A stretch of DNA of 32,000 nt from Candidatus Woesearchaeota archaeon (GCA_937906345.1 CALCXY010000052.1:1-32000), one strand, 5' to 3'. Positions 1 through 25,276 are shown, counted from the first letter of the stretch. Notes: a model not told the origin generated them from the letters alone. Translations and numbers: made by a program.

Positions 1-62
1 ACATCTTCTGGTACTGTTTCTTGTTCTACATATGCTTGTAGAATGTCTTCAAGTTTTTCCAT
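1..62 (-). CDS. hypothetical protein, first 20 codons only (gene runs off the left edge); paralog of the 357-aa protein
   Basis: Reverse complement of 1-62 reads MEKLEDILQAYVEQETVPED. This matches MEMAELEDILQAYVEKETVPED at the N-terminus of ORF 49..1122. The ATG (60-62) overlaps that ORF's stop by 14 nt. It is absent from the ORF track because it has no stop in the window. Confidence 0.55.
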   Translation of the reverse strand, partial: MEKLEDILQAYVEQETVPED

Positions 63-65
63 TTT
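3..65. repeat. direct repeat of the gene-junction sequence, copy 1 (pairs with 1057-1119)
   Basis: 55 of 63 nt are identical. The repeat covers the overlapping stop/start junction plus the first ~20 codons of each paralog. Confidence 0.9.
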
Positions 66-1122
66 GACCCTTCTTACTGTGATATGACCAGTGATCAGCA
101 ATTCGGGGATCTAACTTGGCAACTTCTGCCACCAGAGAATTTAAATTTTCACCACCCTTACGTTGTCTCCTGTCTACCATGGTCACAAGACGTCTTGGCT
201 TCCTGTTATATTTTACATTTAGAGGCACATCTGTTTTCATGTAATTTGCATTGAAATTTCTGTCAGGGTTATGTGAAAGATAATGTCTAAAATAAATCAT
301 TAAGGCCGAGACAGTTTCTGATTTATCAAATTTAGGTCTGATCTGCCACTCCTTTAAGATATTTGGATCAATTACACCACAAAGCTCTAAAATGTAGTAA
401 AATCCTCCTTTTTCAGCTAGATTCTTGTTTGCATTCTGAAAAAGATTTGCTGCCTTAGTGCCAAATTTTTTTTGTACTTCTGGATTTGAAAGGAAACTCA
501 GATTAAGCCTTTGAATATCTTGTTGATCCTTATAGATTTGATAAACATCCAAGAGAATCTGCACGGCCTCAGACTGATTAAACTTTGCTATTGGGTTCCA
601 ATGTTTAAACACATCTACATTCTTGCACGTAGATAAATTCACTATGTATTCCATACCTTCAGCAAATGTTCTTCGGGCTCCTTTATAGATATCTGCACCT
701 CCTATTTCCTTTCTTCTCAAGTATGATGATCCGAATCTCTCCTGGCTACACATATCCAGATAACCTTTTAGTATTATTAAAAATTTATTCGCCCAATGAA
801 CAGCATTAATTACTTTTCGAGCTTGTCGATTTCGTAATTGGGCAAATCTAAGTGTAGTTCCATCCCCTTGTAGATACCTTGGCTTTTTTTTTAATAACAT
901 CGGTAACTGCTCTAGGTCAACCAGAGGTATATCTAGATAAGTTGCTAGTAAAGAGTAATTTTTAAAAGCTTTAATCTCTTGCAAGATCTGAGGTCTCTCT
1001 TCTCTCTCTCTATTGAAATTATTAAGTAAATTTACTGCCTTTGGATACTCTAAAATATCTTCTGGTACTGTTTCCTTTTCCACGTATGCTTGTAGAATGT
1101 CCTCAAGTTCTGCCATTTCCAT
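49..1122 (-). CDS. hypothetical protein (357 aa) with an internal repeat; no family recognised
   Basis: Long ORF whose start overlaps the stop of the upstream SNF2-MTase gene by 20 nt. Internal repeat: HWNPIAKFNQSEAVQILLDVYQIY (aa 174-197) versus EWQIRPKFDKSETVSALMIYFRHY (aa 258-281). Confidence 0.7.
   Translation of the reverse strand: MEMAELEDILQAYVEKETVPEDILEYPKAVNLLNNFNREREERPQILQEIKAFKNYSLLATYLDIPLVDLEQLPMLLKKKPRYLQGDGTTLRFAQLRNRQARKVINAVHWANKFLIILKGYLDMCSQERFGSSYLRRKEIGGADIYKGARRTFAEGMEYIVNLSTCKNVDVFKHWNPIAKFNQSEAVQILLDVYQIYKDQQDIQRLNLSFLSNPEVQKKFGTKAANLFQNANKNLAEKGGFYYILELCGVIDPNILKEWQIRPKFDKSETVSALMIYFRHYLSHNPDRNFNANYMKTDVPLNVKYNRKPRRLVTMVDRRQRKGGENLNSLVAEVAKLDPRIADHWSYHSKKGQNGKT
1057..1119. 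repeat. direct repeat of the gene-junction sequence, copy 2
   Basis: See copy 1. Confidence 0.9.
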
Positions 1123-4100
1123 TCTCTCCTACTAGTTTTACAATATTAGAGGGTAATTGCTCGTACGGCAGAGACACATACCTTCCATTCTTGTGATCCA
1201 CTAAGCCGATTGTAGGAGAATCTTTCATCACATAGAATGAAAAATCCCCCTCTCTTCGAACGTAAAGTGCACTGGCTTCTAAACTGTCAAGAACTTCCTG
1301 AGGCATTTTCTCTTCAGAATCTTCATCCCTCATTTTTGGCTTTTCAAATAGCACTAATTTTCTGTCTTGACCTACTGCATCCTTACTTTTCTTATACTGC
1401 CAGAGATGATAACATCCTTTTTCCTCCCGACACAAAAATTCAAGCCCAAAATCAGATGCAAGAGCCTCATTCACTTTCTCCAGATGTTCGTCAGGATACA
1501 AATTTCTGTGTGTTCCAACATAGAATTTTCCATCAGGAACTATCACTCTATTGACTTCATTCATCAGCATCCAAAGATCATCATCAGAAGTATAGTGCAG
1601 ACTGAGTATTGAGCTTACTGAATCAAAATATTTATCATCAAAGGGAAGATTATAAAAATCACCGAGAAAATTCCTGCTCAGCGGAGAGTGCTTCTCAGCG
1701 AGCCTTAATTGAAATGGATTCATATCTACATTATAAATTTCTCTTCCTAATGCTCTCGAGAGAATTCCATTGCCTCCTCCTAAATCAAGCAATCTCTCAT
1801 ATCCATGCTGTTTGATATATTCTGCTACCCAAGGATTTATGCCTAAACTAACCTTGCTTCTATTTAGCTCAATAGCTAAGGTCTCTGCCCTTCTTATCTT
1901 CTCTTTAACTTCTTCACTTGGATTCTGATCCTTAAGCTCTTCTTCGCTGATTCCAATGGCTTTTGTTACATACTTCCTTCCTTTTCCAAATAAGTCTCTG
2001 AGAATTTCGTTTGCAGCTCTCTTTAAACGCTTCTTTATCCTTTCATTTTCTTGCGGCTTTTCCCAATTCTTGATCTCTCTTTGCTCTTGGGGTGTTAGCA
2101 ATCCTGAATTAAGGATTAAGTCATAATACACTTTTCTGTCATTGACGAGCTCCCATATTCCTTCATCAATAGTGTTCTCAGTCAGTAAAACATCAATATC
2201 AACATCATGTTTTTGTCCTTCTCTATGCAGCCTCTTCATCCACTGGTAAAATTCATCCCATGTGTACGGCAAGTCAAGGGCAATTCCATAACTTGCTCCA
2301 ACAAGGCTAATTCCTTCCTTCATAGTTGGAAGTGACACAAAGAGAACTTCTGTATTTCCTTGATTAAAGCGTTTCATAGCTGCTTGACGATCAGAAATCT
2401 GTTGTCCTTTTTTCTTCAGGGCTGGAACATCTCCATCTATCCTGTCTGTTACATACCACTGGCCAAAATAATCTGCAAGCTTATCAGTTACTCCGTTTTT
2501 AAAAAACGAGGTGCAGACCACTACTTTTCTATTTTTTGGAAGATCTCCAGCGTCTCTTTTTTGATTATATTCATCAACTGCTTTGAAATAATCCTCAATC
2601 ATGGACTCTAACATTACATATTTAGGAGCCTGAAAATCAATGTCAAATACTTCACTGTAACGTGTAAGTAATTCATCATCATGTCGAATATCTTCTCCTC
2701 TCACTCTACTGCCAAGAAGATTTGGATCTAGCGCTATTTTTCTTAATAAAATAAGTCTTTGCAATGGTTTGAGCCTATCTCCTCTATTAAGGATATATTC
2801 ATACATGCTCTTGATTGTATCATCTAATGGAACAAGGACCTCTCTCTCACATCTAGAAGGTAAGTCAAGCACGTCTTCACTCCTTCTTCTCAACATATAA
2901 GGTTTCAGATAAGCTCTTACATACCTTGCATCTCCTGCTAGAATCTCATTGAGGTCTTTACCTCTAGAATCAAATCCAGTAGCATAAAAATACAGGTCTA
3001 GATCTTTTCTGCCAAGTGGGAATGGAGTACCTGTGCTAATAACTTTTCTAGATACTTTGTTCATCAGCTCTCTTACAGCAAGGCCTCTATGTGTTGTCTG
3101 GCCTTTTGCGTTCTGGGATTCATCAACACAGAGCAGCTGATAATCTTGGTCAATTAATTTTTTTAACACAGAATCATGCTCATTGAGATGCAGAATCTTT
3201 GCATATAGTTCTACAATCTCTTCACGACCTAACTGAGAAAGTTCTTCTGCCTTAACCTGGTACGTATTTCCAGGTCGTTTCATTAGTGCCTTCACCTCTT
3301 TTCTCAACTCTGTGATTTTTTTGTCTGTTACGTTTTCTTTTACCAGTTCTATTTCATCAGGGCTAATATCGAATTCATCTAATTCATTCAATTTCCAATC
3401 TTTTCTAAAAATGAGCTCATAATTTACAATTGTAAATGCAGCTGTATCTAATTTTACATACTGTTCTTTACGAGTGGCTCCATTCAACACAACAATGTCC
3501 TCTTCAATCTTGTATTTTCCTTGAAAATAATTTTTCAGCTCTTCTGCAAAAGTTTCTTTTACAGTGTTAGGCGTGATTACTAATGTCTTGACAGCTCTTG
3601 CTTTATCTACAGATATACCTGCTGCAATGGCTTCAAGCTGTCCCATATACTCCGCTGATAATCCCATCTGAGCTGTCTTGCCTGTACCGCAATCATCAAA
3701 GAGGAATGTAATCTCATTTCCTTTCCGTTTCAGCTTAGCATAGAATTCAACTAGCTGATCTCTTCCAAAATCAGCAAGATACGCTTGAACTTCATCTCCT
3801 TCAATCCTTCCAGCTAGATCTTCAACTATTGCAACACGTAAACCATTATCTGGTATCTCCCTTAACTCTCTTGTTCTTTGCTCTAACTCTAACCAATTAA
3901 GCTGATGATCCTGAATATCTTCAAGGCTCCACTGCTCAGGTTTGTAGTCTCTACAAACAACAGCAATGCCTTCCTTTTGGTAAAAGCTTGGGAAAGCCCG
4001 AGTACCTATTCTAGCAGGAATTCCATGAATAGTCAGGTTATTAATATGATCATATTCTTCCCATAGTTCTTTATACATCTTTCTAGCTTCATCATGCTTA

Positions 4101-4858
4101 GAATTTTCTTCATTTTGCATTAGCTGCAAAAGAATATCATCCACCATAATCTTGCAAGTAGCTTCGTATTCAGGGTCTTCTGCATTCATACCTTTGAGCC
4201 CATCATATAATCTTTTTCGCATCCTATTTTTCTCTATATTGCGAATAGCATCATAACACATGCTTGGTAAGGATTTATTAGAAAGCTTGATCTCTTCAAT
4301 AATATGGTCTGCTGTGGGAATTTCAGGAATTTTAGGTTTCTTTCTTTCACTACGTATTCTGCCTAAATAATCTCGTAATCCTCTTACTTTTTCGAACAAT
4401 TCATCTCCCATATTTTTCAATTTATCTCGATGTATTACATACAATAATTCTGCTAGCTCATCCTCAACACCTTCATCCAATACGTCTTGGGCCCAATCCA
4501 GAAGCATATGCATAAGGGGGTCATCTTGATTAATACAATCCTCAATGCTTTTTTCCCCATTTATCTGAGCAGAAGTGTGATTATCTAAATCCAGAGCCAT
4601 TGTGGTATATGTAGGACGATAATTTGGAGCTTTTGGATTTGATTTATCAACTTCACCTATTTGATTTAGCAAAACCTCAGAAGGTAGTCTTCCTGTTTCA
4701 TTTGCTTGATCTTCGATATACTTCCTAAAATCAGAATGCTTATTCTCAAGGAAATCTGGTATCTTGAAGCTTTCTCCATCTACCATTTTTGTCATAAGGG
4801 AGATATTCATATCTGTGATAATTTTTGCAATGTCCTCTAGGGAAAACTCATTTACCAT
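1103..4858 (-). CDS. SNF2-family ATPase/helicase fused to a C-terminal class I SAM-dependent methyltransferase (1251 aa)
   Basis: SNF2 motifs: DDCGTGKT (Walker A, nt ~3677-3697), LLCVDESQNAK (motif II, ~3113-3130), STGTPF, LKPYMLRRR, VVVCTSF, MKEGISL, MKRLHREGQ (motif VI, ~2209-2245). MTase motifs: LLDLGGGNG (motif I, ~1768-1790), FDSVSSILSLHY, VIVPDGKFYV. The first ~380 aa and last ~120 aa are unassigned. Confidence 0.9.
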   Translation of the reverse strand: MVNEFSLEDIAKIITDMNISLMTKMVDGESFKIPDFLENKHSDFRKYIEDQANETGRLPSEVLLNQIGEVDKSNPKAPNYRPTYTTMALDLDNHTSAQINGEKSIEDCINQDDPLMHMLLDWAQDVLDEGVEDELAELLYVIHRDKLKNMGDELFEKVRGLRDYLGRIRSERKKPKIPEIPTADHIIEEIKLSNKSLPSMCYDAIRNIEKNRMRKRLYDGLKGMNAEDPEYEATCKIMVDDILLQLMQNEENSKHDEARKMYKELWEEYDHINNLTIHGIPARIGTRAFPSFYQKEGIAVVCRDYKPEQWSLEDIQDHQLNWLELEQRTRELREIPDNGLRVAIVEDLAGRIEGDEVQAYLADFGRDQLVEFYAKLKRKGNEITFLFDDCGTGKTAQMGLSAEYMGQLEAIAAGISVDKARAVKTLVITPNTVKETFAEELKNYFQGKYKIEEDIVVLNGATRKEQYVKLDTAAFTIVNYELIFRKDWKLNELDEFDISPDEIELVKENVTDKKITELRKEVKALMKRPGNTYQVKAEELSQLGREEIVELYAKILHLNEHDSVLKKLIDQDYQLLCVDESQNAKGQTTHRGLAVRELMNKVSRKVISTGTPFPLGRKDLDLYFYATGFDSRGKDLNEILAGDARYVRAYLKPYMLRRRSEDVLDLPSRCEREVLVPLDDTIKSMYEYILNRGDRLKPLQRLILLRKIALDPNLLGSRVRGEDIRHDDELLTRYSEVFDIDFQAPKYVMLESMIEDYFKAVDEYNQKRDAGDLPKNRKVVVCTSFFKNGVTDKLADYFGQWYVTDRIDGDVPALKKKGQQISDRQAAMKRFNQGNTEVLFVSLPTMKEGISLVGASYGIALDLPYTWDEFYQWMKRLHREGQKHDVDIDVLLTENTIDEGIWELVNDRKVYYDLILNSGLLTPQEQREIKNWEKPQENERIKKRLKRAANEILRDLFGKGRKYVTKAIGISEEELKDQNPSEEVKEKIRRAETLAIELNRSKVSLGINPWVAEYIKQHGYERLLDLGGGNGILSRALGREIYNVDMNPFQLRLAEKHSPLSRNFLGDFYNLPFDDKYFDSVSSILSLHYTSDDDLWMLMNEVNRVIVPDGKFYVGTHRNLYPDEHLEKVNEALASDFGLEFLCREEKGCYHLWQYKKSKDAVGQDRKLVLFEKPKMRDEDSEEKMPQEVLDSLEASALYVRREGDFSFYVMKDSPTIGLVDHKNGRYVSLPYEQLPSNIVKLVGENGNGRT

Positions 4859-4880
4859 ACAGAAGCCGATAAACTCATCA

Positions 4881-4888
4881 TATATAAA
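4881..4888 (-). promoter_or_regulatory. TATA box (TTTATATA on minus strand) about 22 nt upstream of the SNF2-MTase ATG; leaderless-type promoter
   Basis: Plus-strand tatataaa at 4881-4888. The same TTTATATA-22 nt-ATG geometry occurs at 31621-31628 in front of the Hel308-type gene. Confidence 0.5.
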
Positions 4889-4944
4889 TGTTTCTATTTT
4901 TTACTACTAGATAGTGAATACTTTATAAGGATATGTATTTGAAA

Positions 4945-5661
4945 TTAGATCGGAAATTCGCTCCTAAGCTGAAAAGAAAAAATTAAAGCATATCTGTCTT
5001 CAGGGATGGTATTTGAAACCCAGTGACTGTTTGATGCGTCAATTATAGCAATTTCATCATTGGCAAGATTGATTCTAGATTCCTTACCATTAACTTTGAG
5101 ACACAATGGTTCACCTTCAGGCTTGGCAGTTATAATATAATTTGCATCTTTATGAGGAGGAACTTTGTACTCATGTTCAGGTGTATGACGATATCGTGCA
5201 GAAACCAAGTCTGTGTACCCCACGTGATCATCCAAGAAAATTGTACAGAATCTCCTTGCAATCCAATCCATTTTTCGCATGCACTGCATTAATCCCTGCT
5301 CAAATCCAGGAAAATCTTTCTCAGTTTGCCATGTTCTTTGGCCTTCCTGGGTTTTTTCTTCCTGATATATTTGACTAAATCTAGTGGATGTCATGTTAAA
5401 GTACTCAGCTAATGCATCCTCAGGATTATCTCCTATATAATTATACCCTCCCATAATTTGGGGATTTTCTGCTAGATATAATCTTTTCCTATCAGAATCA
5501 AAAAATCGCCGAGATTGTTCATATACAGTATCAATTAGCTTTAAAGAATATCCCTTTAAAATAAGATATCCATCACGATTAAGATTTTCAGTAAAGGGGC
5601 AGCCAGGTTTGAGTTTGTAGAATTGACTTAAGGCCAAAGAATCAACATTTTGCTTGTTCAT
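4945..5661 (-). CDS. 2-oxoglutarate/Fe(II)-dependent oxygenase (238 aa)
   Basis: PPHKDANY (HxD), SNSHWVSN (distal His) and RYALIFSF (RxS, 2OG-binding Arg) occur in the expected order and spacing. N-terminal DGYLILKGY...RRFF resembles the DIOX_N region of IPNS/flavonol-synthase-like enzymes. Confidence 0.8.
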   Translation of the reverse strand: MNKQNVDSLALSQFYKLKPGCPFTENLNRDGYLILKGYSLKLIDTVYEQSRRFFDSDRKRLYLAENPQIMGGYNYIGDNPEDALAEYFNMTSTRFSQIYQEEKTQEGQRTWQTEKDFPGFEQGLMQCMRKMDWIARRFCTIFLDDHVGYTDLVSARYRHTPEHEYKVPPHKDANYIITAKPEGEPLCLKVNGKESRINLANDEIAIIDASNSHWVSNTIPEDRYALIFSFQLRSEFPI

Positions 5662-5693
5662 TTTACTCTTGAATTTGTTCTAAAGAAAAGATA

Positions 5694-6656
5694 CTAAGAA
5701 GTACCGAACACTGTGAATTTATCCCCTTTATGCTTTTGTATTTTTTCCTTGGATGTATAGGGGCCTATAATACTAAGTTTTCCTCCTGATCTTACTCCAT
5801 TATCAGGAAGGGTTACTATATCAAAATTAGATTGGTAAGGATCTTCTTTCCTTCCAGGCATATAAGTTAATTTGGTTACTGCATTTTTTGGATTTGAAGG
5901 ATCAAGGGTTGTAAGGCCTTCTCTTGGAACTGAATCTCCAATAATGCTCACTTCACCCCCAAGAGCCAATCCATCTAGTGCATCAGAATTATCCTTAATG
6001 ATGTTAAGAGCTTTACTGACCTTTCCAGGACCATCTAAATACTCATTTCCAACATTAGCCTCGGTGATCATTACACATGAAGGAACATTAGCAGCTTCTG
6101 TGCCAATATTTAACAATCGTGCGCCATACATAAATTTCATGACAAAAAGTGATCCTGGAGCATATTTCATGCCCTTTCGAGCTTTAGTTTCTTTTCCATC
6201 TGGAAATCCTTCAAAAGATTCTGCTCCTATAATTCTTCCTGACATAAAGCTATTTCCACCATTTTCATAGGTCCGTATAATCCATCTTCCAATAAGATCC
6301 TGAGCTACTTTACAAGCATTTTTAGCATATCTGTTGTCAGCATTTTGGTTAATTCCATATACGAATAAACCATTAGGAGCATCAATCTGCATATACTCTG
6401 CAATATCTTTGTCTTTTTTTATTCCATCTATTACAGTATCTACTGATGTAAGACCTACGAATGGCTGATTATCAGGTTTTTTAGAGCTAATCTGTAAATC
6501 TCCTCTCAACTGGGCAAGATCAGGGTTCTCAGAATCCAAGACTTGATTGTCTGTTGCTACAGATACAATACGCACAGGATTAATACCTTTTCCATCTTCT
6601 CCAATTCGAATCAACCATTTTCCAACAGTTTCATTAGTTAGATAATCTATATTCAT
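5694..6656 (-). CDS. AAG/MPG-fold (3-methyladenine DNA glycosylase family) -like protein with extra N- and C-terminal regions (320 aa)
   Basis: aa ~109-240 match, from memory, the conserved blocks of the Pur_DNA_glyco family. VAQDLIGRWII corresponds to VA..LLGk.Lv. GRIIGAESFEG corresponds to GRIVETEAY.G, with the catalytic-position Glu kept at E146 (nt 6219-6221). MKYAPGSLFVMKFMYGARLLNI corresponds to MF..PG.lYVY.iYG....NI. LDGPGKVSKALNI corresponds to l.GPgKL.qAl.I. Confidence 0.6.
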   Translation of the reverse strand: MNIDYLTNETVGKWLIRIGEDGKGINPVRIVSVATDNQVLDSENPDLAQLRGDLQISSKKPDNQPFVGLTSVDTVIDGIKKDKDIAEYMQIDAPNGLFVYGINQNADNRYAKNACKVAQDLIGRWIIRTYENGGNSFMSGRIIGAESFEGFPDGKETKARKGMKYAPGSLFVMKFMYGARLLNIGTEAANVPSCVMITEANVGNEYLDGPGKVSKALNIIKDNSDALDGLALGGEVSIIGDSVPREGLTTLDPSNPKNAVTKLTYMPGRKEDPYQSNFDIVTLPDNGVRSGGKLSIIGPYTSKEKIQKHKGDKFTVFGTS

Positions 6657-6818
6657 TTAATATCAGCATAAGAAAACATCATCTTATATTTAAATGTTTC
6701 CCTTATGACTACTTATAAGTAATAGTAAAATTTATAAAGAATATAATATTTGTAATCAATTAATATAGTAGAACTGCATGTAAAGTGTGTAAGGTTACTT
6801 TAAATTTTTTAAATTAAA

Positions 6819-7364
6819 ATGAATAAAACAATATCTCAACCTCTCGCTGATGGAACTAACAGCAAACCAGAACCCTATTATACTGCGGAATTGTATGAGA
6901 TAAGAGGAATAATGCCTTTCTTGGAGCATATAGAGCAATATTTGAGTGGTGATAGAACTGTTCCAGTTATTAGGACTGAAGATCATACCTCAAGGACCAA
7001 TCAGAATAGTGATGTATTCTGCACATTTTCTGATGATCTAATGAGACTATTTCTAGATGAAAAAAATGGATTAGAAAAACCCTATGAGGTAGCCTTAAAA
7101 TATGGGTTTAGGGGTTTTAGCAGAGGAGGTCGAAATGGAATTTTCTATCAAAGAAAGAAAGATGATGGTATGAAAGGGGTTACAGATTCTCTAATGTTAA
7201 AAAATACTGAAATGTTAAGTTTAGACTTAGATGTTCCTATTGATCACTTGGATGAACTTAAGAAAGTCAAAATTGTCTGGCATAATCCACAAGGACCAAG
7301 AGTGGTAGGAGCATATAATACTATTAAGCAGAGAATAGTATTTCTAGATTTTGCAAATTACTAA
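6819..7364 (+). CDS. hypothetical protein (181 aa)
   Basis: ORF in the high-GC island, divergent from the glycosylase-like gene. Its stop (7362-7364) overlaps the stop of the convergent gene 7361..8284. No motif recognised. Confidence 0.55.
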   Translation: MNKTISQPLADGTNSKPEPYYTAELYEIRGIMPFLEHIEQYLSGDRTVPVIRTEDHTSRTNQNSDVFCTFSDDLMRLFLDEKNGLEKPYEVALKYGFRGFSRGGRNGIFYQRKKDDGMKGVTDSLMLKNTEMLSLDLDVPIDHLDELKKVKIVWHNPQGPRVVGAYNTIKQRIVFLDFANY

Positions 7365-8284
7365 GCAGCTTCTATATTTTCTATATAAACTCCTCTAGGA
7401 AACTTGAATTCCTGCAAGCTATTAGACTGAGGAATAGGTCCAGCTTTTGGAACTAATGCTGTAGAGAAGAATATAATCCTAATCCCTCCCACAACTCCGA
7501 TCTGCCCAAAGAAATTCCTCCGCTCATCATCTGACATACTGCTTACTCTAGCCATAACAGCTGGAGGACAGTTAAAAACTCCAATTAAATCGCCTTTTTG
7601 TCTTCCGGCTGAACCAACTAAGGCTCCACCAGAAAGAGTCTTTTTTACCTCTGCTTTACTCATAGCTCTACCATAAATTCTAGGTGATGGGTAATAACTA
7701 TCCTTTTCAAATTGATCAAGTTTCATATTTATTTGTCTCAATATATCTATAAAGATTATAATTTGATTTGTTGTCTTTTCTAGTCCATCAAAACATCGCT
7801 TCACCCTTCCAGATAAGGCATGCTTATGGATTTTTAATCCATCTTTTAAAAGTTCTGATAGCAAGATAGTATTTCCTCTTGCTCTTTCTGACAAATTAAA
7901 GGCATTGTTCATATATTGAGTAAAGATGATTCTCAGCGGCAATTTCTCATCCAGATACACCTCATAATCCTGTTGAATTATTTTTAATAATTTACGTGCT
8001 TTCTTAATTTTGTACCGAATATCCTGCTCAATAGCTTTAACCTTTCTGAACTCTTCACCTAATTTTTCTAGATTCTCAATATGTACTTGACTTACTTTCA
8101 GTGTGTATCTGTGTATAACAAACCCGTGTTTTGCAAGCACATGATCCTCTAAGAATTCCTCTTGCTTCACCATAGTTCTTAACAGGTCTTCAAGAGTCTT
8201 GAACCTAGTATACAAATCTAAAATAAGGGCATATGCTTCTCTCATACGGATATTATACAATAAACTATTTAAAAACATTTGCAT
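7361..8284 (-). CDS. hypothetical protein (307 aa): helical/coiled-coil N-terminal ~190 aa plus Gly-rich C-terminal ~110-aa domain
   Basis: Long ORF with island-like composition. The N-terminal half is rich in heptad-like K/E/L stretches. The C-terminal domain is unassigned. Confidence 0.6.
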
Positions 8285-8361
8285 AATTATTGTGCAGAGA
8301 TTAATTTCAATACCTAAACTCTGCAGCGGCCCTCATGTAAAAAACACTAAAGAACTTGGAA

Positions 8362-8429
8362 CCTTCAAAATTAAGAAGGAAGAATCTTCTGCAGCAGGAA
8401 TAAGAAGGATTAAAGCTGTTGTTGAGTAA
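8362..8429 (+). repeat. copy 1 of a duplicated coding tail (…[20 protein letters not shown]-stop)
   Basis: Positions 8382-8429 align with 9625-9672 at 41 of 48 nt, including an identical 18-mer agaaggattaaagctgtt (8403-8420 = 9646-9663). Both copies end in TAA in the same frame. Confidence 0.85.
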
Positions 8430-8498
8430 TCATATCTAAGCTTGGCATGAATTATTATTTCAATATCAAAACGAAATATTAAGAATTTTTTAGAAAGC

Positions 8499-8529: not shown

Positions 8530-9120
8530 ATGATAAGAAAAATTACCAAGTTTAATATCATATCCTTGTATACATCTAATTATGATAAGAGGCTATACTT
8601 AAGAGAGATAGCTAAATTCCTGAAAAAGCCTCACCAATCTATTAAGCCATATATCCAACAGCTAGTCAATGAAAATATTCTAATACAGGAAAAAAGAAAT
8701 AACGTAACTGACTTTTACCTTAATGTAAAAAATCATGCGGTATTCGAATATCTTAGCATGGCTGAAAAAACACAATTAATCCAAAAAATAAATCAAGAAA
8801 TAATTCTCAAAATACTCTATGAGAAACTTGCCAAAACATTCACTCTAAATACTTATATAATCTTTGGCTCAGCAGCACAATACGTAAAGAAGACATCGGA
8901 TATCGACTTGCTCATAATAGGAAAGAAAAAAATAAATGACATTCTCAATCAGTTTGAAAAAGTCTACAACAAGTCGATCCATACAATTCAAGTATTAAAT
9001 CTAGAAAACGTTTCAACAAGGCTAATCAAAGAGGTGTATAAGAAGCATATTATAATGAATAATTCAGATCAGGTAATAACATTTTTGAGGAAAATTCATG
9101 AAAAAAATAGAATGGTGTAA
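8530..9120 (+). CDS. minimal nucleotidyltransferase (MNT-type antitoxin-like) with N-terminal wHTH
   Basis: IIFGSAAQYVKKTSDIDLLIIG matches the GS-x9-DxD NTase motif. The N-terminal LREIAKFLKKPHQSIKPYIQQLVNENIL looks like a wHTH. It overlaps the downstream HEPN-like ORF by 23 nt. Confidence 0.8.
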   Translation: MIRKITKFNIISLYTSNYDKRLYLREIAKFLKKPHQSIKPYIQQLVNENILIQEKRNNVTDFYLNVKNHAVFEYLSMAEKTQLIQKINQEIILKILYEKLAKTFTLNTYIIFGSAAQYVKKTSDIDLLIIGKKKINDILNQFEKVYNKSIHTIQVLNLENVSTRLIKEVYKKHIIMNNSDQVITFLRKIHEKNRMV

Positions 9121-9586
9121 AACAAAATCTAGGGGTATCAAGAAAATTGATCCTAATGATAATCTCTCAGAGGAATACTTAGAAAATGCAGAGGAAAGCC
9201 TAGAAGTTTTAAGAAGTATTCATAAAACTAAGTCCAAGATGTGGCTTGCAACAACTAAATACTATATCAAGTACTTTGCAGTCTACTCAATCTTTATGAA
9301 AATTGGAATTAAGTGCGAAATACATGATTGTACTATTGCACTCATTGAAAATCTTGAAAACGGAAATATTTTTGAAGTTGGCACTGCAAAGACGTTGGAG
9401 AAAGATAAACAATTAAGGATTGATAATCAGTATTATCTCAAAAACAAGGAAGTTAATATTAACTTTGATGAGCTTGCAGGTTTTATGCTTTTCATTCGAG
9501 AAGCACTGGAAAATTTGGATGAAGATAGAATTGAGGAAATTAGAGAAACTATTTTTCCTTCTAAAAAAGATACAGAAAAACAGTAG
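9098..9586 (+). CDS. HEPN-domain-like protein (partner of the nucleotidyltransferase)
   Basis: All-helical 162 aa. EEYLENAEESLEVLRSI...YYIKYFAVYSIFMKIGIKCEIHDCT resembles HEPN helices, and the genomic pairing with an MNT supports the call. A canonical Rx4-6H motif is not evident (LRIDNQYY instead). Confidence 0.6.
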   Translation: MKKIEWCKTKSRGIKKIDPNDNLSEEYLENAEESLEVLRSIHKTKSKMWLATTKYYIKYFAVYSIFMKIGIKCEIHDCTIALIENLENGNIFEVGTAKTLEKDKQLRIDNQYYLKNKEVNINFDELAGFMLFIREALENLDEDRIEEIRETIFPSKKDTEKQ

Positions 9587-10630: not shown

Positions 10631-11680
10631 ATGAAACCTCGGTATGAAGTATTGAGAGATATGAAAAAGAGAAAGAAGCGTTTCATTAATATACTGCCAA
10701 GTATAAGATCAATATTTACAGGAAAATCCTTATTTATTGTAATGTTTATTCTTTTATTTATTGTTTCTATTTTTTTCTATACTCAATTTGAATTTTTATC
10801 ACAAGGACCATACCAATCTCAAGCAGGTGAATCTGCTTACTTTCAAGCGTTTTATTGGCTTGTAACTACTGCAACAACTGTGGGTTATGGTGATATCACT
10901 CCTACAACAATGGAAGGAAAAATATTAGCCTTAGTTGTTATGGTTTTAGGTGTTTCCTTATTAGGTTTTTTAATCACTCAATTAACAAAATCAATTGTAG
11001 AATCAAATATTGGAAAATTATTTGGATTAAACCGAATAAGATCCTCTATTGAATATATTATTTGTGGATGGAACGATTTAAGTAAAGCTGCCTTTGAAGA
11101 AGTAAACAATTTTAAAAATTCAATAATTATTATTTCAAAAACCCGTCCTGAGATTGATTTTTCAAAAAATGTTCAATTTATGAATGGAGATCCTCAAGAT
11201 AAAACCATTTTAGAAAATGCTAATATCAAAAAGGCAAAAAATGTGCTATTATGTATGGACTCTGATTCTGAGATCTTATTAGCAATTCATATTATTAGAG
11301 AATTAAATCCTTGGATTAACATAACTGCAAAGATGAATGATCCAGAATATATTCCCATGGCTGAATCTGCTGGTGCTGACCAAGTTGTTGCACCTTCAGC
11401 AATATCTGGAAGACTTTTATCAATAGTCCCTGAGCAGCCTTATGTTGTAAAGTGGTTTCTAGGTGCTACCTCTACTACCTTAAATGAAAAATTTATTGAA
11501 TACATTGTAGGTCCAAAATCTGTTTTTGCTGGAAAAACATTAGATCTCATCAGACAATCTTCAAATATAAAAATTATTGGAGTAGAATCAACTGAAGGAT
11601 TTGAAAAACTTCCTAAAGATGATTATGAAATTAAAATAGGAGATAAATTAATTGTATTATTTGATACCTTGCCAAAATGA
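10631..11680 (+). CDS. MthK-like K+ channel: 2-TM pore with C-terminal RCK (TrkA-N/TrkA-C) domain
   Basis: Selectivity filter TTTVGYGD lies between two hydrophobic helices. The RCK region contains YIICGWNDLSKAAFEEV and ...GADQVVAPSAISGRLL. Confidence 0.9.
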   Translation: MKPRYEVLRDMKKRKKRFINILPSIRSIFTGKSLFIVMFILLFIVSIFFYTQFEFLSQGPYQSQAGESAYFQAFYWLVTTATTVGYGDITPTTMEGKILALVVMVLGVSLLGFLITQLTKSIVESNIGKLFGLNRIRSSIEYIICGWNDLSKAAFEEVNNFKNSIIIISKTRPEIDFSKNVQFMNGDPQDKTILENANIKKAKNVLLCMDSDSEILLAIHIIRELNPWINITAKMNDPEYIPMAESAGADQVVAPSAISGRLLSIVPEQPYVVKWFLGATSTTLNEKFIEYIVGPKSVFAGKTLDLIRQSSNIKIIGVESTEGFEKLPKDDYEIKIGDKLIVLFDTLPK

Positions 11681-21251: not shown

Positions 21252-21348
21252 TAGCCCCGAGCGGATTCGAACCGCTGTCCATGCCTCCAAAGGGCACGAT
21301 GATTGACCACTACACTCCGCAGACCTTAATTAGATCTTCTACGGGGCT
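21252..21348 (-). tRNA. tRNA-Gln: tRNA-Gln(UUG) with a 24-nt intron between positions 8 and 9 (intron 21317-21340)
   Basis: On the minus strand, the acceptor AGCCCCG/CGGGGCU has A73 and the A1-U72 pair typical of archaeal tRNA-Gln. The D arm is GUGU-AGUGGUCAA-UCAU. The anticodon arm is GUGCC-CUUUGGA-GGCAU (anticodon 21288-21290). The T arm is AGCGG-UUCGAAU-CCGCU. No CCA is encoded, and an oligo-T tract follows the 3' end. Confidence 0.8.
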
Positions 21349-21378: not shown

Positions 21379-22110
21379 TTAGAATAGATCGTTTGTATAT
21401 AAATTTAATGCTTCTATCCTAGATTTTAAAGATGATTTTGGAATATAATATCCAAATTTATCCCAAAAAAGATATTTAGAAAAATGTACAGGGTTTTTTG
21501 GAGATATTAATTCCATCCATTTTTCAAGATTTTCAGTACCTGATAATTGATATATGAGAAGAACAAATTTTCTACCTTGACTCCATTTTCCATAATTAAA
21601 ACCTAATTTTTCAAATAAATATTTTAATTGATTTGAAAATGTTGAAGGAGTGAAACCTAATTCTAATCTTGGATAATAATTATATGATTTAGATTGTTTA
21701 GAAAATTTTAAACATCCATCTGTATCAAATAAACCTCTAAGGAAAGGAGGGTATAACTTTTTATTTTTCAAGATAAATAAAGGAATTTTCGCATTTTTTT
21801 TGTTCCCTCTTATTAAACCAATTTCATTTATTAAGAAATCAATAATGGGTTTAGAATAAAAATAAATGTAATAAGCATTCCGATCTTTTCTTTTTTTTAA
21901 TTTAGGTATAATATTAAACAGTTCAACAATCAAAGGAATAACATGATACTTATAATAATAAATATCTTCCAAACTTCCTACGATTGTAACTCTATTATAT
22001 TCTAAATGTATATTTCCATCTCCTAAAACAATTCCAATAAATTCAACCAACTTTGCACTTTTAGGAGGAATTCTGATTTTTTTTAAATTTCCTTTATTAT
22101 ATTTTTTCAT
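21379..22110 (-). CDS. free-standing double-motif LAGLIDADG homing-endonuclease-like protein
   Basis: LVEFIGIVLGDGNI is motif 1 and FLRGLFDTDGCLKF is motif 2. The gene ends 30 nt upstream of the tRNA-Gln on the same strand. Confidence 0.85.
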   Translation of the reverse strand: MKKYNKGNLKKIRIPPKSAKLVEFIGIVLGDGNIHLEYNRVTIVGSLEDIYYYKYHVIPLIVELFNIIPKLKKRKDRNAYYIYFYSKPIIDFLINEIGLIRGNKKNAKIPLFILKNKKLYPPFLRGLFDTDGCLKFSKQSKSYNYYPRLELGFTPSTFSNQLKYLFEKLGFNYGKWSQGRKFVLLIYQLSGTENLEKWMELISPKNPVHFSKYLFWDKFGYYIPKSSLKSRIEALNLYTNDLF

Positions 22111-24652: not shown

Positions 24653-25276
24653 ATGGAAATTAAAATAAATATTAAAAAGCAGCATCTCATCTATCTTTGT
24701 ATAATCATAGCAATCTCATTAGGATTAGTTGCGTATGCCAATTCAGGAGATCAATCTCATTCAGTAGATGAGATTTTATTTGATAATTCAATTCCTCAAT
24801 TAACAATCTCTGGAGATTTAACAGTAGGAGGCACAATTAGTGCAGGAGGATTCTCTATTGCTTCTTTAGCTATGCCTTCTGGAGCTGTTATGGCCTTTGA
24901 TGCAGAATCTTGCCCTGCAGATTGGAGTGAATTTACCTTAGCTAATGGAAGAGTTATTGTAGGTCAACTTGAAAATGATGCAGATTTTGGAGGAATTGAA
25001 CAAATTGGTGGAGAAAGATCACAAAGGTTAACTACCAATCAGATTCCTTCACATTCACATACCCTTACTGATATTGGTCATGCTCATTTAACTCAAATTG
25101 TAGTATCTCAATCAGGTTTTACAGGAGGTTCTCAATCATTCGGAAATGGACTTGGTGGTGGTGGTCAACCAACAACAAATGTAGTATCTGGTATATCTAT
25201 AGCTAATGCAGGTGGTTCTCAAGCTCACAACAACCTCCAACCATACATAGTTCTCAAATATTGTAAAAAAAACTAA
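24653..25276 (+). CDS. membrane-anchored phage-tail-collar-domain protein
   Basis: An N-terminal TM helix is followed by PSGAVMAFDAESCPADW, GGERSQRLTTNQIPSHSH and GGSQAHNNLQPYIVLKYC. These match the Collar (tail fibre/MdpB-like) domain pattern as I recall it. Confidence 0.7.
   Translation: MEIKINIKKQHLIYLCIIIAISLGLVAYANSGDQSHSVDEILFDNSIPQLTISGDLTVGGTISAGGFSIASLAMPSGAVMAFDAESCPADWSEFTLANGRVIVGQLENDADFGGIEQIGGERSQRLTTNQIPSHSHTLTDIGHAHLTQIVVSQSGFTGGSQSFGNGLGGGGQPTTNVVSGISIANAGGSQAHNNLQPYIVLKYCKKN

What the first reader, a model, noticed from the sequence alone, without database searches (positions are those of the whole stretch)
1..6656. Candidate undescribed system: AAG-fold glycosylase-like + 2OG-Fe(II) oxygenase + giant SNF2-ATPase/SAM-methyltransferase + tandem orphan paralogs
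Five co-oriented minus-strand genes are tightly packed: a 32-nt gap, an 86-nt gap carrying its own TATA box, then 20-nt and 14-nt stop/start overlaps. That suggests two linked transcription units, glycosylase-like plus oxygenase, then SNF2-MTase plus paralogs. None of the genes is housekeeping, and the block sits in a compositionally foreign island next to a toxin-antitoxin pair.

Pairing a translocase with a methyltransferase recalls DISARM, BREX and type I/ISP restriction logic. The methyltransferase, oxygenase and base-excision enzyme together form a write/oxidise/excise triad. That triad is reminiscent of base-hypermodification pathways, or functionally of the Ada-AlkB-AlkA alkylation response. 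No nuclease, integrase or canonical DNA-MTase motif is visible. I do not recognise this gene set as any described system.
Basis: partly seen in the sequence, partly recalled or inferred. Interest (0 to 1): 0.8.

Follow-up and report, generated by a model that had tools for sequence, protein, structure and literature searches.

The report
Integrase-less archaeal glycosylase–SNF2–methyltransferase mobile island
A compact, horizontally moving gene package in uncultured marine archaea combines a DNA base-excision enzyme homolog, a DNA motor fused to a methyltransferase, and several copies of a new repeat protein; it matches no described system and is probably a restriction-modification-like DNA-surveillance module, though its function is untested.

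Summary
All gene coordinates, gaps (32, 86 nt) and overlaps (20, 14 nt) check out. The AAG-family, 2OG-oxygenase, SNF2 and class-I methyltransferase assignments are supported by profiles.

Three things change the picture.

1. The block runs past the window edge. There are four tandem repeat-protein paralogs, not two.
2. The block lies inside an ~11.8-kb insert bounded by 117-bp direct repeats. One repeat is the 3' end of the alanyl-tRNA synthetase gene; the other (window 8317-8433) is a displaced copy differing only by synonymous changes.
3. A second archaeal contig carries a diverged copy (43-54% identity) as an 8-kb insert. It is flanked by 67-bp repeats behind the 23S rRNA gene and holds only the glycosylase homolog, the SNF2-methyltransferase and two repeat proteins.

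The conserved core is therefore three families. It moves as a unit with no detectable integrase.

The oxygenase is a lineage-specific accessory. It resembles IPNS/plant-type small-molecule oxygenases, not AlkB or TET, so the "write/oxidise/excise triad" is not core.

Best reading, confidence about 0.4: a restriction-modification-like selfish or defence gene complex with a base-excision effector. No PADLOC defence system matches. My searches had limited sensitivity, so the apparent rarity is provisional.

The parts
1..62 (-). 5' end of the second repeat-protein paralog (458 aa on the full contig). It is cut by the window edge and its start codon is at 62-60.
   Evidence: L001 11061-12437 encodes MEKLEDILQAYVEQETVPEDV.... 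Two more paralogs (375 and 380 aa) follow outside the window.
49..1122 (-). Repeat-protein paralog 1 (357 aa). It has a conserved ~95-aa N-terminal domain followed by three ~85-aa all-alpha repeats, the first degenerate.
   Evidence: No Pfam, PHROG, NCBIfam or PADLOC family matches. The AF2 model is all-helical but low confidence (pLDDT 48.5).
1103..4858 (-). Fusion protein of 1251 aa: unknown N-terminal domain (~1-285), SNF2 ATPase (~288-920), class-I SAM methyltransferase (~1010-1135) and a conserved C-terminal tail.
   Evidence: Pfam; phrog_62 E 2e-41. The PDB profile's best hit is the Sulfolobus SNF2/Rad54 ATPase 1z63. The motifs GTGKT, DESQ, TGTP, HREGQ and LDLGGGNG are present; there is no DPPY-type or PCQ motif. 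The ortholog P0002 is 50-54% identical.
4879..4894 (-). Promoter-like BRE/TATA box (AGAAACATTTATATA) in the 86-nt gap, 23-30 nt upstream of the SNF2-methyltransferase ATG.
   Evidence: A TATA-like box (AAAAACTTTATAAAGG) sits in the equivalent 62-nt gap of L007.
4945..5661 (-). 2OG-Fe(II) oxygenase-like protein (238 aa). It is a lineage-specific accessory gene.
   Evidence: phmmer found 8 distant homologs. H170, D172, H213 and R223 are invariant. Weak DIOX_N and 2OG-FeII_Oxy hits; PDB 3on7 E 3e-5. The gene is absent from L007.
5694..6656 (-). AAG/MPG-family DNA glycosylase homolog (320 aa). The family core is ~108-220, with N- and C-terminal extensions.
   Evidence: Pfam 36.5 bits against a cut-off of 27. 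A two-sequence profile hits human AAG at E 3e-6. E146 aligns with catalytic E125 and N183 with N169, and both are invariant; the His136 loop is deleted and Y159 is replaced by Met. Residues 2-41 resemble the start of the core (hhalign E 5.7e-5).
6685..6700 (-). Promoter-like BRE/TATA box (GGGAAACATTTAAATA) upstream of the glycosylase-like gene.
   Evidence: L007 has GGGGAACATTTATAAATA at the equivalent position.
6819..7364 (+). Orphan gene (181 aa) inside the insert. Its 3' end overlaps the 307-aa gene convergently by 4 nt.
   Evidence: No family hit. Not present in L007.
7361..8284 (-). Orphan gene (307 aa) at the inner edge of the insert. The N-terminal half is probably helical. There is no recombinase signature.
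   Evidence: Not present in L007.
8317..8433 (.). Direct-repeat copy marking the right boundary of the insert. It is a displaced copy of the last 37 codons plus stop of the alanyl-tRNA synthetase gene.
   Evidence: It is 111/117 identical to L001 14626-14742. Five of the six mismatches fall in codons and are synonymous.

Best explanation
The finding is the window-resident part of an ~11.8-kb mobile gene complex with no detectable integrase. It has inserted at the 3' end of the alanyl-tRNA synthetase gene of an uncultured low-GC marine archaeon.

**Conserved core (shown).** Three gene families in fixed order and two transcription units:
1. An AAG-family glycosylase homolog. It keeps the catalytic glutamate but has a remodelled base pocket.
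2. An SNF2 dsDNA-translocase fused to a class-I SAM methyltransferase.
3. Two to four translationally coupled paralogs of an all-alpha ~85-aa-repeat protein. They share an N-terminal domain.

**Proposed mechanism (inferred).** The complex works like a restriction-modification or DISARM-type module, with base excision as the effector.
- The motor-methyltransferase tracks along duplex DNA and deposits a mark.
- The repeat proteins dock through their common N-terminal domain and supply DNA or target binding.
- The glycosylase converts particular bases in target DNA into abasic sites, which inactivates that DNA.
- Which DNA is the target is not resolved. It could be unmarked DNA, or DNA carrying a foreign modification.

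Such a unit would act as a defence or addiction module. That would explain how it persists and spreads as a self-contained cassette.

The oxygenase and the 181-aa and 307-aa orphans are lineage-specific additions.
For: **Conserved linkage.**
- L007/L008 carry the same three families in the same order. Identities are 43% (glycosylase-like), 50-54% (SNF2-methyltransferase) and 29-38% (repeat proteins).
- Nothing else is shared between the two loci.

**Mobility as a unit.**
- 117-bp direct repeats bound the window-lineage insert.
- 67-bp direct repeats, 99% identical, bound an 8.0-kb insert in L007. It contains only the four core genes and starts 1 nt after the 23S rRNA.
- The two targets differ. 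No integrase or transposase was detected.
- The five in-codon mismatches between the AlaRS repeat copies are all synonymous. This implies two functional alleles, meaning the element brought its own copy of the target.
- The pattern meets most published criteria for 'insertion with long target duplication' of R-M gene complexes: under 20 kb, repeats over 30 bp, no other mobility genes (PMC2853133, read).

**Enzymes look active.**
- The catalytic Glu and the N169 equivalent are conserved in the glycosylase-like protein.
- SNF2 motifs I, II and VI and SAM motif I are intact in both lineages. Motif III (TGTP) was matched only in the window protein.

**Precedents.**
- A methyltransferase-SNF2 dyad is a known theme in conflict systems (PMC5512222). 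SNF2 plus MTase plus effector occurs in BREX-related systems (PMC12839542).
- Stand-alone glycosylases defend against phages. Brig3 has an AAG-like fold (bioRxiv 10.64898/2026.02.25.707755). See also Dag1/2 and the PabI restriction glycosylases.

**Context.**
- The insert has higher GC than its flanks.
- A SoFic-like Fic gene (E 1.5e-31), a DUF4145 gene and an MNT-type nucleotidyltransferase flank the locus.
Against: - No experiment or methylome supports any activity.
- The methyltransferase lacks every canonical DNA-MTase motif. It most resembles small-molecule and carboxyl O-methyltransferases, so DNA may not be its substrate.
- No sequence-recognition module comparable to HsdS or a TRD is identified. 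The role of the repeat proteins is a guess. They have no family match, and the resemblance to ARM repeats is a weak local motif.
- Both structure predictions failed (pLDDT 48.5 and 28.7), so no fold-level test was possible.
- Only two lineages are known, which makes co-occurrence statistics impossible.
- No empty-site allele or circular form was found.
- The L007 locus has no defence-gene neighbours.
Confidence: 0.4

Rival explanations
1. The core genes are the mobility and maintenance machinery of a new kind of integrative element, not cargo. On this reading, lesion formation by the glycosylase at a target, SNF2-driven annealing or branch migration, and host recombination together insert the element next to a carried copy of the host target.
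For: - The L007 insert contains nothing but the four core genes between its 67-bp repeats.
- The two lineages use different targets and different repeat lengths, and no integrase was found.
- The element-borne AlaRS fragment differs only by synonymous changes, which fits Campbell-type recombination through a carried target copy.
Against: - None of these protein families has a known strand-transfer activity.
- Long repeats at gene 3' ends are also what a trans-acting integrase or plain homologous recombination would leave.
- The element could be a decayed remnant.
- No circular junction or second copy was observed.
Confidence: 0.15
2. It is a DNA-modification (hypermodification or anti-restriction) module of a mobile element. 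The SNF2-methyltransferase modifies the element's or the host's DNA as DarB-like dyads do. The oxygenase, where present, elaborates the mark. The glycosylase homolog edits or proofreads the modified bases.
For: - The strongest family hit of the SNF2 part is phrog_62, a phage helicase family (E 2e-41).
- The methylase-SNF2 dyad of polyvalent proteins is proposed to protect incoming DNA (PMC5512222).
- Oxygenase-SNF2 coupling exists in base J synthesis (JBP2), from my own knowledge.
Against: - The methyltransferase is not of the adenine-MTase type found in those dyads.
- The oxygenase is not TET/JBP-like and is not conserved.
- An 8-kb element with no replication, transfer or virion genes has little DNA of its own to protect.
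Confidence: 0.15
3. It is a horizontally acquired DNA-repair or alkylation-tolerance island. The AAG homolog removes alkylated purines, the oxygenase reverses alkylation, and the SNF2 protein gives access to lesions.
For: - Membership of the AAG/3-methyladenine glycosylase family with a conserved catalytic Glu.
- SNF2 proteins such as CSB/ERCC6 appear among the PDB hits.
Against: - The glycosylase scores far below the NCBIfam 3mg cut-offs (35 against 116 bits), and its pocket residues are changed.
- The oxygenase is not AlkB-like and is missing in L007.
- A fused methyltransferase and 2-4 diversifying repeat paralogs have no place in repair.
- The unit is mobile and rare.
Confidence: 0.1
4. 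The target is not DNA at all. The methyltransferase and oxygenase make or modify a small molecule or a protein, and the gene linkage is incidental.
For: The methyltransferase resembles BioC, Mtf2 and UbiE-type enzymes. The oxygenase resembles IPNS/plant-type 2OG oxygenases.
Against: - The methyltransferase is covalently fused to an intact SNF2 dsDNA translocase in both lineages.
- It is always preceded by an AAG-family gene.
- The oxygenase is dispensable.
- No other biosynthetic genes lie in either insert.
Confidence: 0.05

Closest known systems
Restriction-modification gene complexes inserted 'with long target duplication' (Furuta, Abe & Kobayashi 2010, PMC2853133)
   Same: Small inserts under 20 kb, flanked by direct repeats much longer than 30 bp that duplicate the target. 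They carry no integrase or transposase, have atypical GC, and overlap the 3' end of a host gene. The cargo is a methyltransferase plus a DNA-damaging partner.
   Different: - That study's screen retained no archaeal case.
- Here the 'R' candidate is an AAG-family glycosylase and the 'M' candidate is not a recognisable DNA methyltransferase.
- No empty-site genome was available for comparison.
- The synonymous-only differences suggest the element carried its own target copy rather than duplicating the target in situ.
DNA methylase-SWI2/SNF2 dyad of phage/plasmid polyvalent proteins (DarB-like; Iyer et al. 2017, PMC5512222)
   Same: A methyltransferase and an SNF2 ATPase sit in one polypeptide on a mobile element. 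The best family hit of the SNF2 part is a phage helicase family (phrog_62).
   Different: - Those dyads use an N6-adenine MTase, usually N-terminal to the ATPase.
- Here the MTase is Methyltransf_11-type, C-terminal, and lacks the DPPY motif.
- The partners here, an AAG homolog and repeat paralogs, are not reported there.
Antiviral and restriction DNA glycosylases (Brig1/Brig3, Dag1/Dag2, PabI family)
   Same: Base excision serves as the DNA-inactivating step. The genes lie on mobile or defence islands. Brig3 is described as AAG-like in overall fold and pocket.
   Different: - Brig and Dag proteins act as single genes (Brig3 with the accessory BapA).
- PabI pairs with a conventional DNA MTase and has a different fold.
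- None is linked to an SNF2-MTase fusion or to repeat-protein arrays.
- Sequence relatedness to Brig1/3 could not be tested here.
DISARM, BREX-related 'BR' systems, Dpd and Zorya type II (SNF2-containing defence systems)
   Same: An SNF2-family motor is combined with a methyltransferase and a DNA-damaging effector in one operon. There are weak PADLOC hits to DrmD, DpdE and ZorD.
   Different: - The hits cover only the generic helicase lobes.
- None of the defining partners is present: DrmA/B/C, PglZ/BrxC/PglX, DpdA-C, ZorA/B, or an HKD or PD-(D/E)xK nuclease.
Human AAG/MPG and bacterial/archaeal 3-methyladenine DNA glycosylase (PF02245)
   Same: Family-level sequence match over the N-terminal two-thirds of the domain. 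The catalytic Glu125 and Asn169 equivalents are conserved, and an aromatic residue is kept at Tyr127.
   Different: - The His136 loop is deleted and Tyr159 is replaced by Met.
- The C-terminal third is not matched.
- There are extra ~105-aa N-terminal and ~100-aa C-terminal regions.
- It scores far below the ortholog cut-offs.
- It is operon-linked to a motor-MTase.
JBP2 of kinetoplastids (2OG oxygenase fused to SNF2) and the Ada/AlkA/AlkB response
   Same: An oxygenase is coupled with an SNF2 ATPase, or a methyl-handling protein with an oxygenase and a glycosylase. Both resemblances are from my own knowledge.
   Different: The oxygenase here is not TET/JBP- or AlkB-like by profile and is absent from the second lineage. 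Neither analogy therefore describes the conserved core.

Membership tests
AAG/MPG DNA glycosylase family (Pfam PF02245 Pur_DNA_glyco) | Sequence match above the curated family threshold | tested here: met
   36.5 bits against a gathering score of 27, residues 110-220. The L007 ortholog is also annotated PF02245. The two-sequence profile hits human AAG at E 3e-6.
AAG/MPG DNA glycosylase family (Pfam PF02245 Pur_DNA_glyco) | Catalytic general-base Glu (human E125) and pocket residues Y127, H136, Y159, N169 | tested here: inconclusive
   The E125 equivalent (E146) and the N169 equivalent (N183) are invariant. Y127 is F in the window protein and Y in L007. The H136 loop is deleted and Y159 is Met. 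The catalytic residue is kept but the pocket is remodelled.
AAG/MPG DNA glycosylase family (Pfam PF02245 Pur_DNA_glyco) | Orthology to 3-methyladenine glycosylase (NCBIfam TIGR00567 / PRK00802 cut-offs) | tested here: not met
   35 bits against a cut-off of 116; 30.9 against 211.
AAG/MPG DNA glycosylase family (Pfam PF02245 Pur_DNA_glyco) | AAG fold (curved mixed beta-sheet) over the whole domain | not testable with these tools
   The single-sequence AF2 model failed (pLDDT 28.7). Only 3-130 of 181 profile positions align.
2OG-Fe(II) oxygenase superfamily | HxD/E...H iron triad and 2OG-binding Arg, conserved across homologs | tested here: met
   H170, D172, H213 and R223 are invariant in 8 sequences.
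2OG-Fe(II) oxygenase superfamily | Pfam family score above threshold for the window protein | tested here: not met
   DIOX_N scores 17.0 against 27.3; Asp_Arg_Hydrox 16.6 against 22.6. Four of the 8 aligned family sequences weakly hit 2OG-FeII_Oxy. The profile hits PDB 3on7 at E 3e-5.
AlkB or TET/JBP nucleic-acid oxygenases | Profile match to these families | tested here: not met
   No such family appears among the Pfam or PDB hits of the protein or its homologs.
SNF2/SWI2 ATPases | SNF2-rel_dom plus Helicase_C above threshold, with intact motifs I, II, III and VI | tested here: met
   38.6 and 33.6 bits. GTGKT, DESQ, TGTP and HREGQ are present in the window protein; the TGTP pattern was not matched in P0002. 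Best PDB hit is 1z63.
DNA amino- or C5-methyltransferases | Motif IV (D/N/S)PP(Y/F/W), or PCQ plus ENV | tested here: not met
   Neither motif IV nor PCQ occurs in either ortholog. The Pfam and NCBIfam hits are Methyltransf_11/25 and BioC/Mtf2/UbiE-like.
DISARM / BREX / Dpd / Zorya / MADS (PADLOC models) | Presence of the systems' defining partner proteins | tested here: not met
   There are only helicase-lobe hits to DpdE, ZorD and DrmD, plus a partial mad2 hit to the methyltransferase domain. All other cluster proteins give nothing.
R-M unit 'insertion with long target duplication' (criteria of PMC2853133) | Insert under 20 kb; flanking direct repeats over 30 bp; no other mobility genes | tested here: met
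   11.8 kb with 117 bp repeats, and 8.0 kb with 67 bp repeats. No integrase or transposase family hit.
R-M unit 'insertion with long target duplication' (criteria of PMC2853133) | Insert contains both an R and an M homolog; repeat aligns to a single copy in an insert-free genome | tested here: inconclusive
   The R and M roles are inferred only. No empty-site contig was found among the 9 contigs carrying the flanking gene. No close genome exists in the GTDB representatives.
Brig1/Brig3 antiviral glycosylases | Sequence or structural homology to Brig1/Brig3 | not testable with these tools
   PADLOC-DB 2023 predates Brig1. No Brig-named chain appeared in the PDB profile search. No usable model was available for a fold comparison.

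The most novel reading that the evidence does not exclude
The three-family core (AAG-like glycosylase, SNF2-methyltransferase, repeat-protein array) is itself an autonomous mobile element of a new class. It would spread without an integrase or transposase. It would create a base-excision lesion at a chosen host site and use SNF2-driven annealing, plus a carried copy of the target, to insert with a long duplication. The methyltransferase would protect occupied sites, and the diversifying repeat proteins would choose the target.
Probability: 0.1. Interest if true: 0.9.

Novelty: new variant of a known kind. Interest (0 to 1): 0.62.

Why it matters
- If the glycosylase is the effector of a motor-plus-methyltransferase module, base-excision restriction and defence would no longer be limited to single-gene (Brig, Dag) or two-gene (PabI) systems. 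It would extend to a translocase-coupled, multi-subunit system, in archaea that are almost unexplored for immunity.
- The methyltransferase is not of any DNA-MTase class. A DNA mark made by it would be new chemistry.
[quoted passage not shown] The 2010 genome screen I read (PMC2853133) retained no archaeal case, and the mechanism of this mode of gene mobility is still unknown.
- The ~85-residue repeat protein family has no detectable relatives. It shows a patch exchange between paralogs, which makes it a candidate programmable binding scaffold.

Tried and rejected
**Structure prediction**
- The repeat protein (2-sequence alignment) gave pLDDT 48.5.
- The glycosylase homolog (single sequence) gave pLDDT 28.7.
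- Both models are too poor, so I ran no fold search.

**Looking for more loci**
- SNF2-MTase alignment against GTDB genomes, JGI metagenome contigs and IMG/VR: nothing relevant.
- Repeat-protein and glycosylase alignments against metagenome and viral contigs: nothing.
- tblastn against plasmids and phages: only generic SNF2 C-lobe hits at 23-27% identity.
- The word-indexed protein searches returned almost only self-hits. They missed homologs I already knew of, so their negative results are weak.

**Identifying the organism**
- The neighbouring K+ channel gene used as a query against GTDB found only a 29%-identical Methanothrix hit.
- Cluster look-up gave TARA station 037 mesopelagic, 0.1-0.22 and 0.22-1.6 um size fractions, but no taxon.

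**The repeat unit**
- HhH idea: a Cdd1 hit of 27.7 bits comes from repeat summation. It was not reproduced per unit, so I rejected it.
- ARM idea: only a local GGIxxIVxLA motif matches designed ARM proteins. The two halves of the unit are not similar to each other, so this is unproven.
- HEAT-like AlkD/AlkC glycosylase idea: no Pfam hit.

**Other checks**
- The 307-aa protein as a hidden integrase: no Pfam, PHROG, NCBIfam or PDB support.
- Strain comparison for an empty site: all contigs are 100% identical to the window.

Full report
**1. The observation**

The 32-nt and 86-nt gaps and the 20-nt and 14-nt overlaps are exact.

The 86-nt gap holds AGAAACATTTATATA at 4893-4881, 23-30 nt upstream of the ATG. 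A near-identical GGGAAACATTTAAATA (6699-6687) precedes the first gene.

The rest of the window is an archaeal chromosome. It encodes:
- CDP-archaeol synthase and a thermosome
- ribosomal protein S15/S13
- an XPD helicase, a RecJ/Cdc45-like DHH protein and a Hel308-like helicase
- tRNA-Gln

Chromosomal GC is about 30%; the block is about 36-37%. Look-ups place the sequence in TARA Oceans station 037 mesopelagic metagenomes, including the 0.1-0.22 um size fraction. A very small-celled (DPANN-like) archaeon is my inference only.

**2. The proteins**

*The 320-aa protein.* It passes the Pfam Pur_DNA_glyco threshold (36.5 against 27 bits). A profile built with its ortholog hits human AAG at E 3e-6.
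- The alignment puts invariant E146 on the catalytic Glu125 and N183 on Asn169.
- Phe or Tyr sits on Tyr127.
- The His136 loop is deleted and Tyr159 is Met.
- It is therefore a family member that probably retains chemistry but has a different pocket.
- It is far below the 3mg ortholog cut-offs.
- Residues 2-41 look like a partial duplicate of the start of the core.

*The 238-aa protein.* Its Pfam hits are only sub-threshold.
- An exhaustive phmmer search found eight 212-247-aa homologs with invariant HxD...H...R.
- Half of the aligned sequences touch 2OG-FeII_Oxy or DIOX_N.
- The profile hits an iron/ascorbate oxidoreductase structure, 3on7, at E 3e-5.
- This is the IPNS/plant-2ODD-like branch, not AlkB or TET/JBP.

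*The 1251-aa protein.* It is an intact SNF2 ATPase.
- Motifs I, II, III and VI are present.
- The best PDB relative is the Sulfolobus Rad54-like enzyme, and phrog_62 scores E 2e-41.
- It carries an unknown ~285-aa N-terminal domain, a C-terminal Methyltransf_11-type domain and a conserved tail.
- The methyltransferase has a normal SAM motif I but no DNA-MTase motif IV. It resembles BioC, Mtf2 and UbiE-type enzymes.

*The 'orphan paralogs'.* They form a new family.
- A ~95-aa conserved N-terminal domain (LEDILQAYVE..TVPEDIL..NRFNREREERP) is followed by three to six ~85-aa repeats.
- No library recognises them.
- The AF2 model is all-helical but unreliable.

**3. Beyond the window**

The exact-protein look-up returned a 52.6-kb contig, L001, that is 100% identical to the window where they overlap. 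On it the cluster continues with three more paralogs (458, 375 and 380 aa), giving seven co-oriented genes. It ends 3 nt from the stop codon of a convergent alanyl-tRNA synthetase gene.

**4. A second locus**

The only real homolog of the fusion protein, P0002 (50-54% identity, same architecture), lies on a 167-kb archaeal contig, L007. A second sample gives L008.

In L007 it is preceded by a 317-aa Pur_DNA_glyco protein (43% identical). It is followed by 620-aa and 465-aa members of the repeat family.

An all-against-all ORF comparison shows that these three families are the only things the two loci share. The oxygenase and the 181-aa and 307-aa genes are absent from L007, and the flanks are unrelated. 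Promoter-like boxes occupy the same two positions.

The oxygenase, however, is not core.

**5. Boundaries and mobility**

*Window lineage.* A 117-bp direct repeat (111/117 identical) occurs at two places:
- the 3' end of the AlaRS gene (L001 14626-14742)
- window 8317-8433, just outside the 307-aa gene

The second copy encodes a displaced AlaRS C-terminus. Five of the six mismatches fall in codons and all five are synonymous. That is not expected from decay of a dead copy; on a rough expectation that about a quarter of random coding changes are synonymous, the chance is on the order of 0.25^5. The two copies therefore come from two functional alleles, meaning the element brought its own copy of the target.

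*L007.* A 67-bp repeat (99% identical) starts 1 nt after the 23S rRNA and recurs 7 nt after the last repeat-protein gene. It encloses 8.0 kb that contains only the four core genes.

Neither insert has a detectable integrase or transposase. This matches most of the published description of R-M gene complexes inserted 'with long target duplication' (PMC2853133). The match is incomplete because no empty site was available for comparison.

**6. Interpretation**

*Shown:*
- A conserved, compact, horizontally mobile three-family unit.
- Catalytic signatures intact in the glycosylase homolog, the ATPase and the SAM-binding site.

*Inferred:* an R-M-like or DISARM-like logic with base excision as the effector. 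It is supported by:
- the known methylase-SNF2 dyad (PMC5512222)
- SNF2 plus MTase plus effector systems (PMC12839542)
- antiviral glycosylases, one of them described as AAG-like in fold
- defence-associated neighbours in one lineage (SoFic-like Fic, DUF4145, MNT)

*Against:*
- The methyltransferase class is not a DNA-MTase class.
- There is no recognisable specificity module.
- There are no functional data.
- Only two lineages are known.

I put this reading at about 0.4. The rivals are a new mobility machinery (0.15), a DNA-modification or anti-restriction module (0.15), a repair island (0.1) and a non-DNA target (0.05).

**7. Limits**

The word-indexed protein searches demonstrably missed known family members, and the collection scans depend on exact peptide patterns. 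'Only two lineages' is therefore a lower bound on the distribution.

Both structure predictions failed, so no fold-level evidence exists for the extensions of the glycosylase homolog, for the N-terminal domain of the fusion protein or for the repeat proteins.

**8. Verdict**

This is a real, undescribed gene complex. It is best filed as a new variant of motor-methyltransferase-effector conflict systems, with an AAG-family effector and an unusual mode of mobility.

Its triad mechanism does not hold.

Noticed in passing
L010 2633-2704 against L001 14282-14353 and L001 ~11546-11637 (outside the window): A population variant of the 380-aa paralog (P0005) differs from the L001 copy only in one 72-nt patch (24 nt, 11 aa). 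That patch is identical to a segment of the 458-aa paralog. This is either gene conversion between tandem paralogs or an assembly chimera. TARA assemblies also break inside this paralog array.
   Followed up: partly
window 5694-6656, protein residues 2-41 against 113-153: The N-terminal extension of the glycosylase homolog resembles the first strands of its own AAG core (VGKWLIRxxxDG..PVRIV against IGRWIIRTYENGG..GRII). The catalytic Glu is missing from this copy. hhalign gives E 5.7e-5 and probability 66%.
   Followed up: partly
window 6819-7364 (+) and 7361-8284 (-): Two orphan genes lie inside the insert with their 3' ends overlapping by 4 nt. They are absent from the second lineage. The 307-aa protein has a helical N-terminal half and a Gly-rich C-terminal domain with no detectable relatives. 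They could be a toxin/immunity-like pair or an unrecognised recombination function.
   Followed up: partly
window 8530-9120 and 9098-9586: A wHTH plus Polbeta/MntA-like nucleotidyltransferase overlaps a 162-aa partner. The partner has no family hit and shows RIDNQY where a HEPN Rx4-6H motif would be expected. The pair lies just outside the insert's repeat.
   Followed up: partly
L001 16434-19204 (beyond the AlaRS gene, outside the window): A SoFic-like Fic protein (PADLOC E 1.5e-31), a DUF4145 protein and two small orphans sit on the far side of the AlaRS gene. The integration site is thus flanked by defence-associated genes on both sides.
   Followed up: partly
L001 14630-16381 (outside the window): The alanyl-tRNA synthetase is only 583 aa (catalytic domain plus tRNA_SAD) and lacks the usual C-terminal part. 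This suggests a reduced or split enzyme, as reported for some small-genome archaea (the comparison is from my own knowledge).
   Followed up: no
window 21252-21326 and 21379-22110: A free-standing LAGLIDADG-type endonuclease-like gene (243 aa) lies 52 nt from tRNA-Gln.
   Followed up: no
window 24653-25276: A 207-aa protein matches the C-terminal domain of phage baseplate protein Gp10 (35.6 bits against a cut-off of 27). It sits between a DUF2238 membrane protein and the thermosome gene, an odd place for a virus-like domain.
   Followed up: no
L007 2253-8810: The rRNA operon of the second archaeon is longer than the Rfam models: SSU 1621 nt against 1478, LSU 3734 nt against 2987. It carries LAGLIDADG ORFs at 4166-4627 and 7127-7642, which suggests intron or homing-endonuclease insertions.
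   Followed up: no
window 26989-28539: A 516-aa ORF on the minus strand has no Pfam match at all.
   Followed up: no
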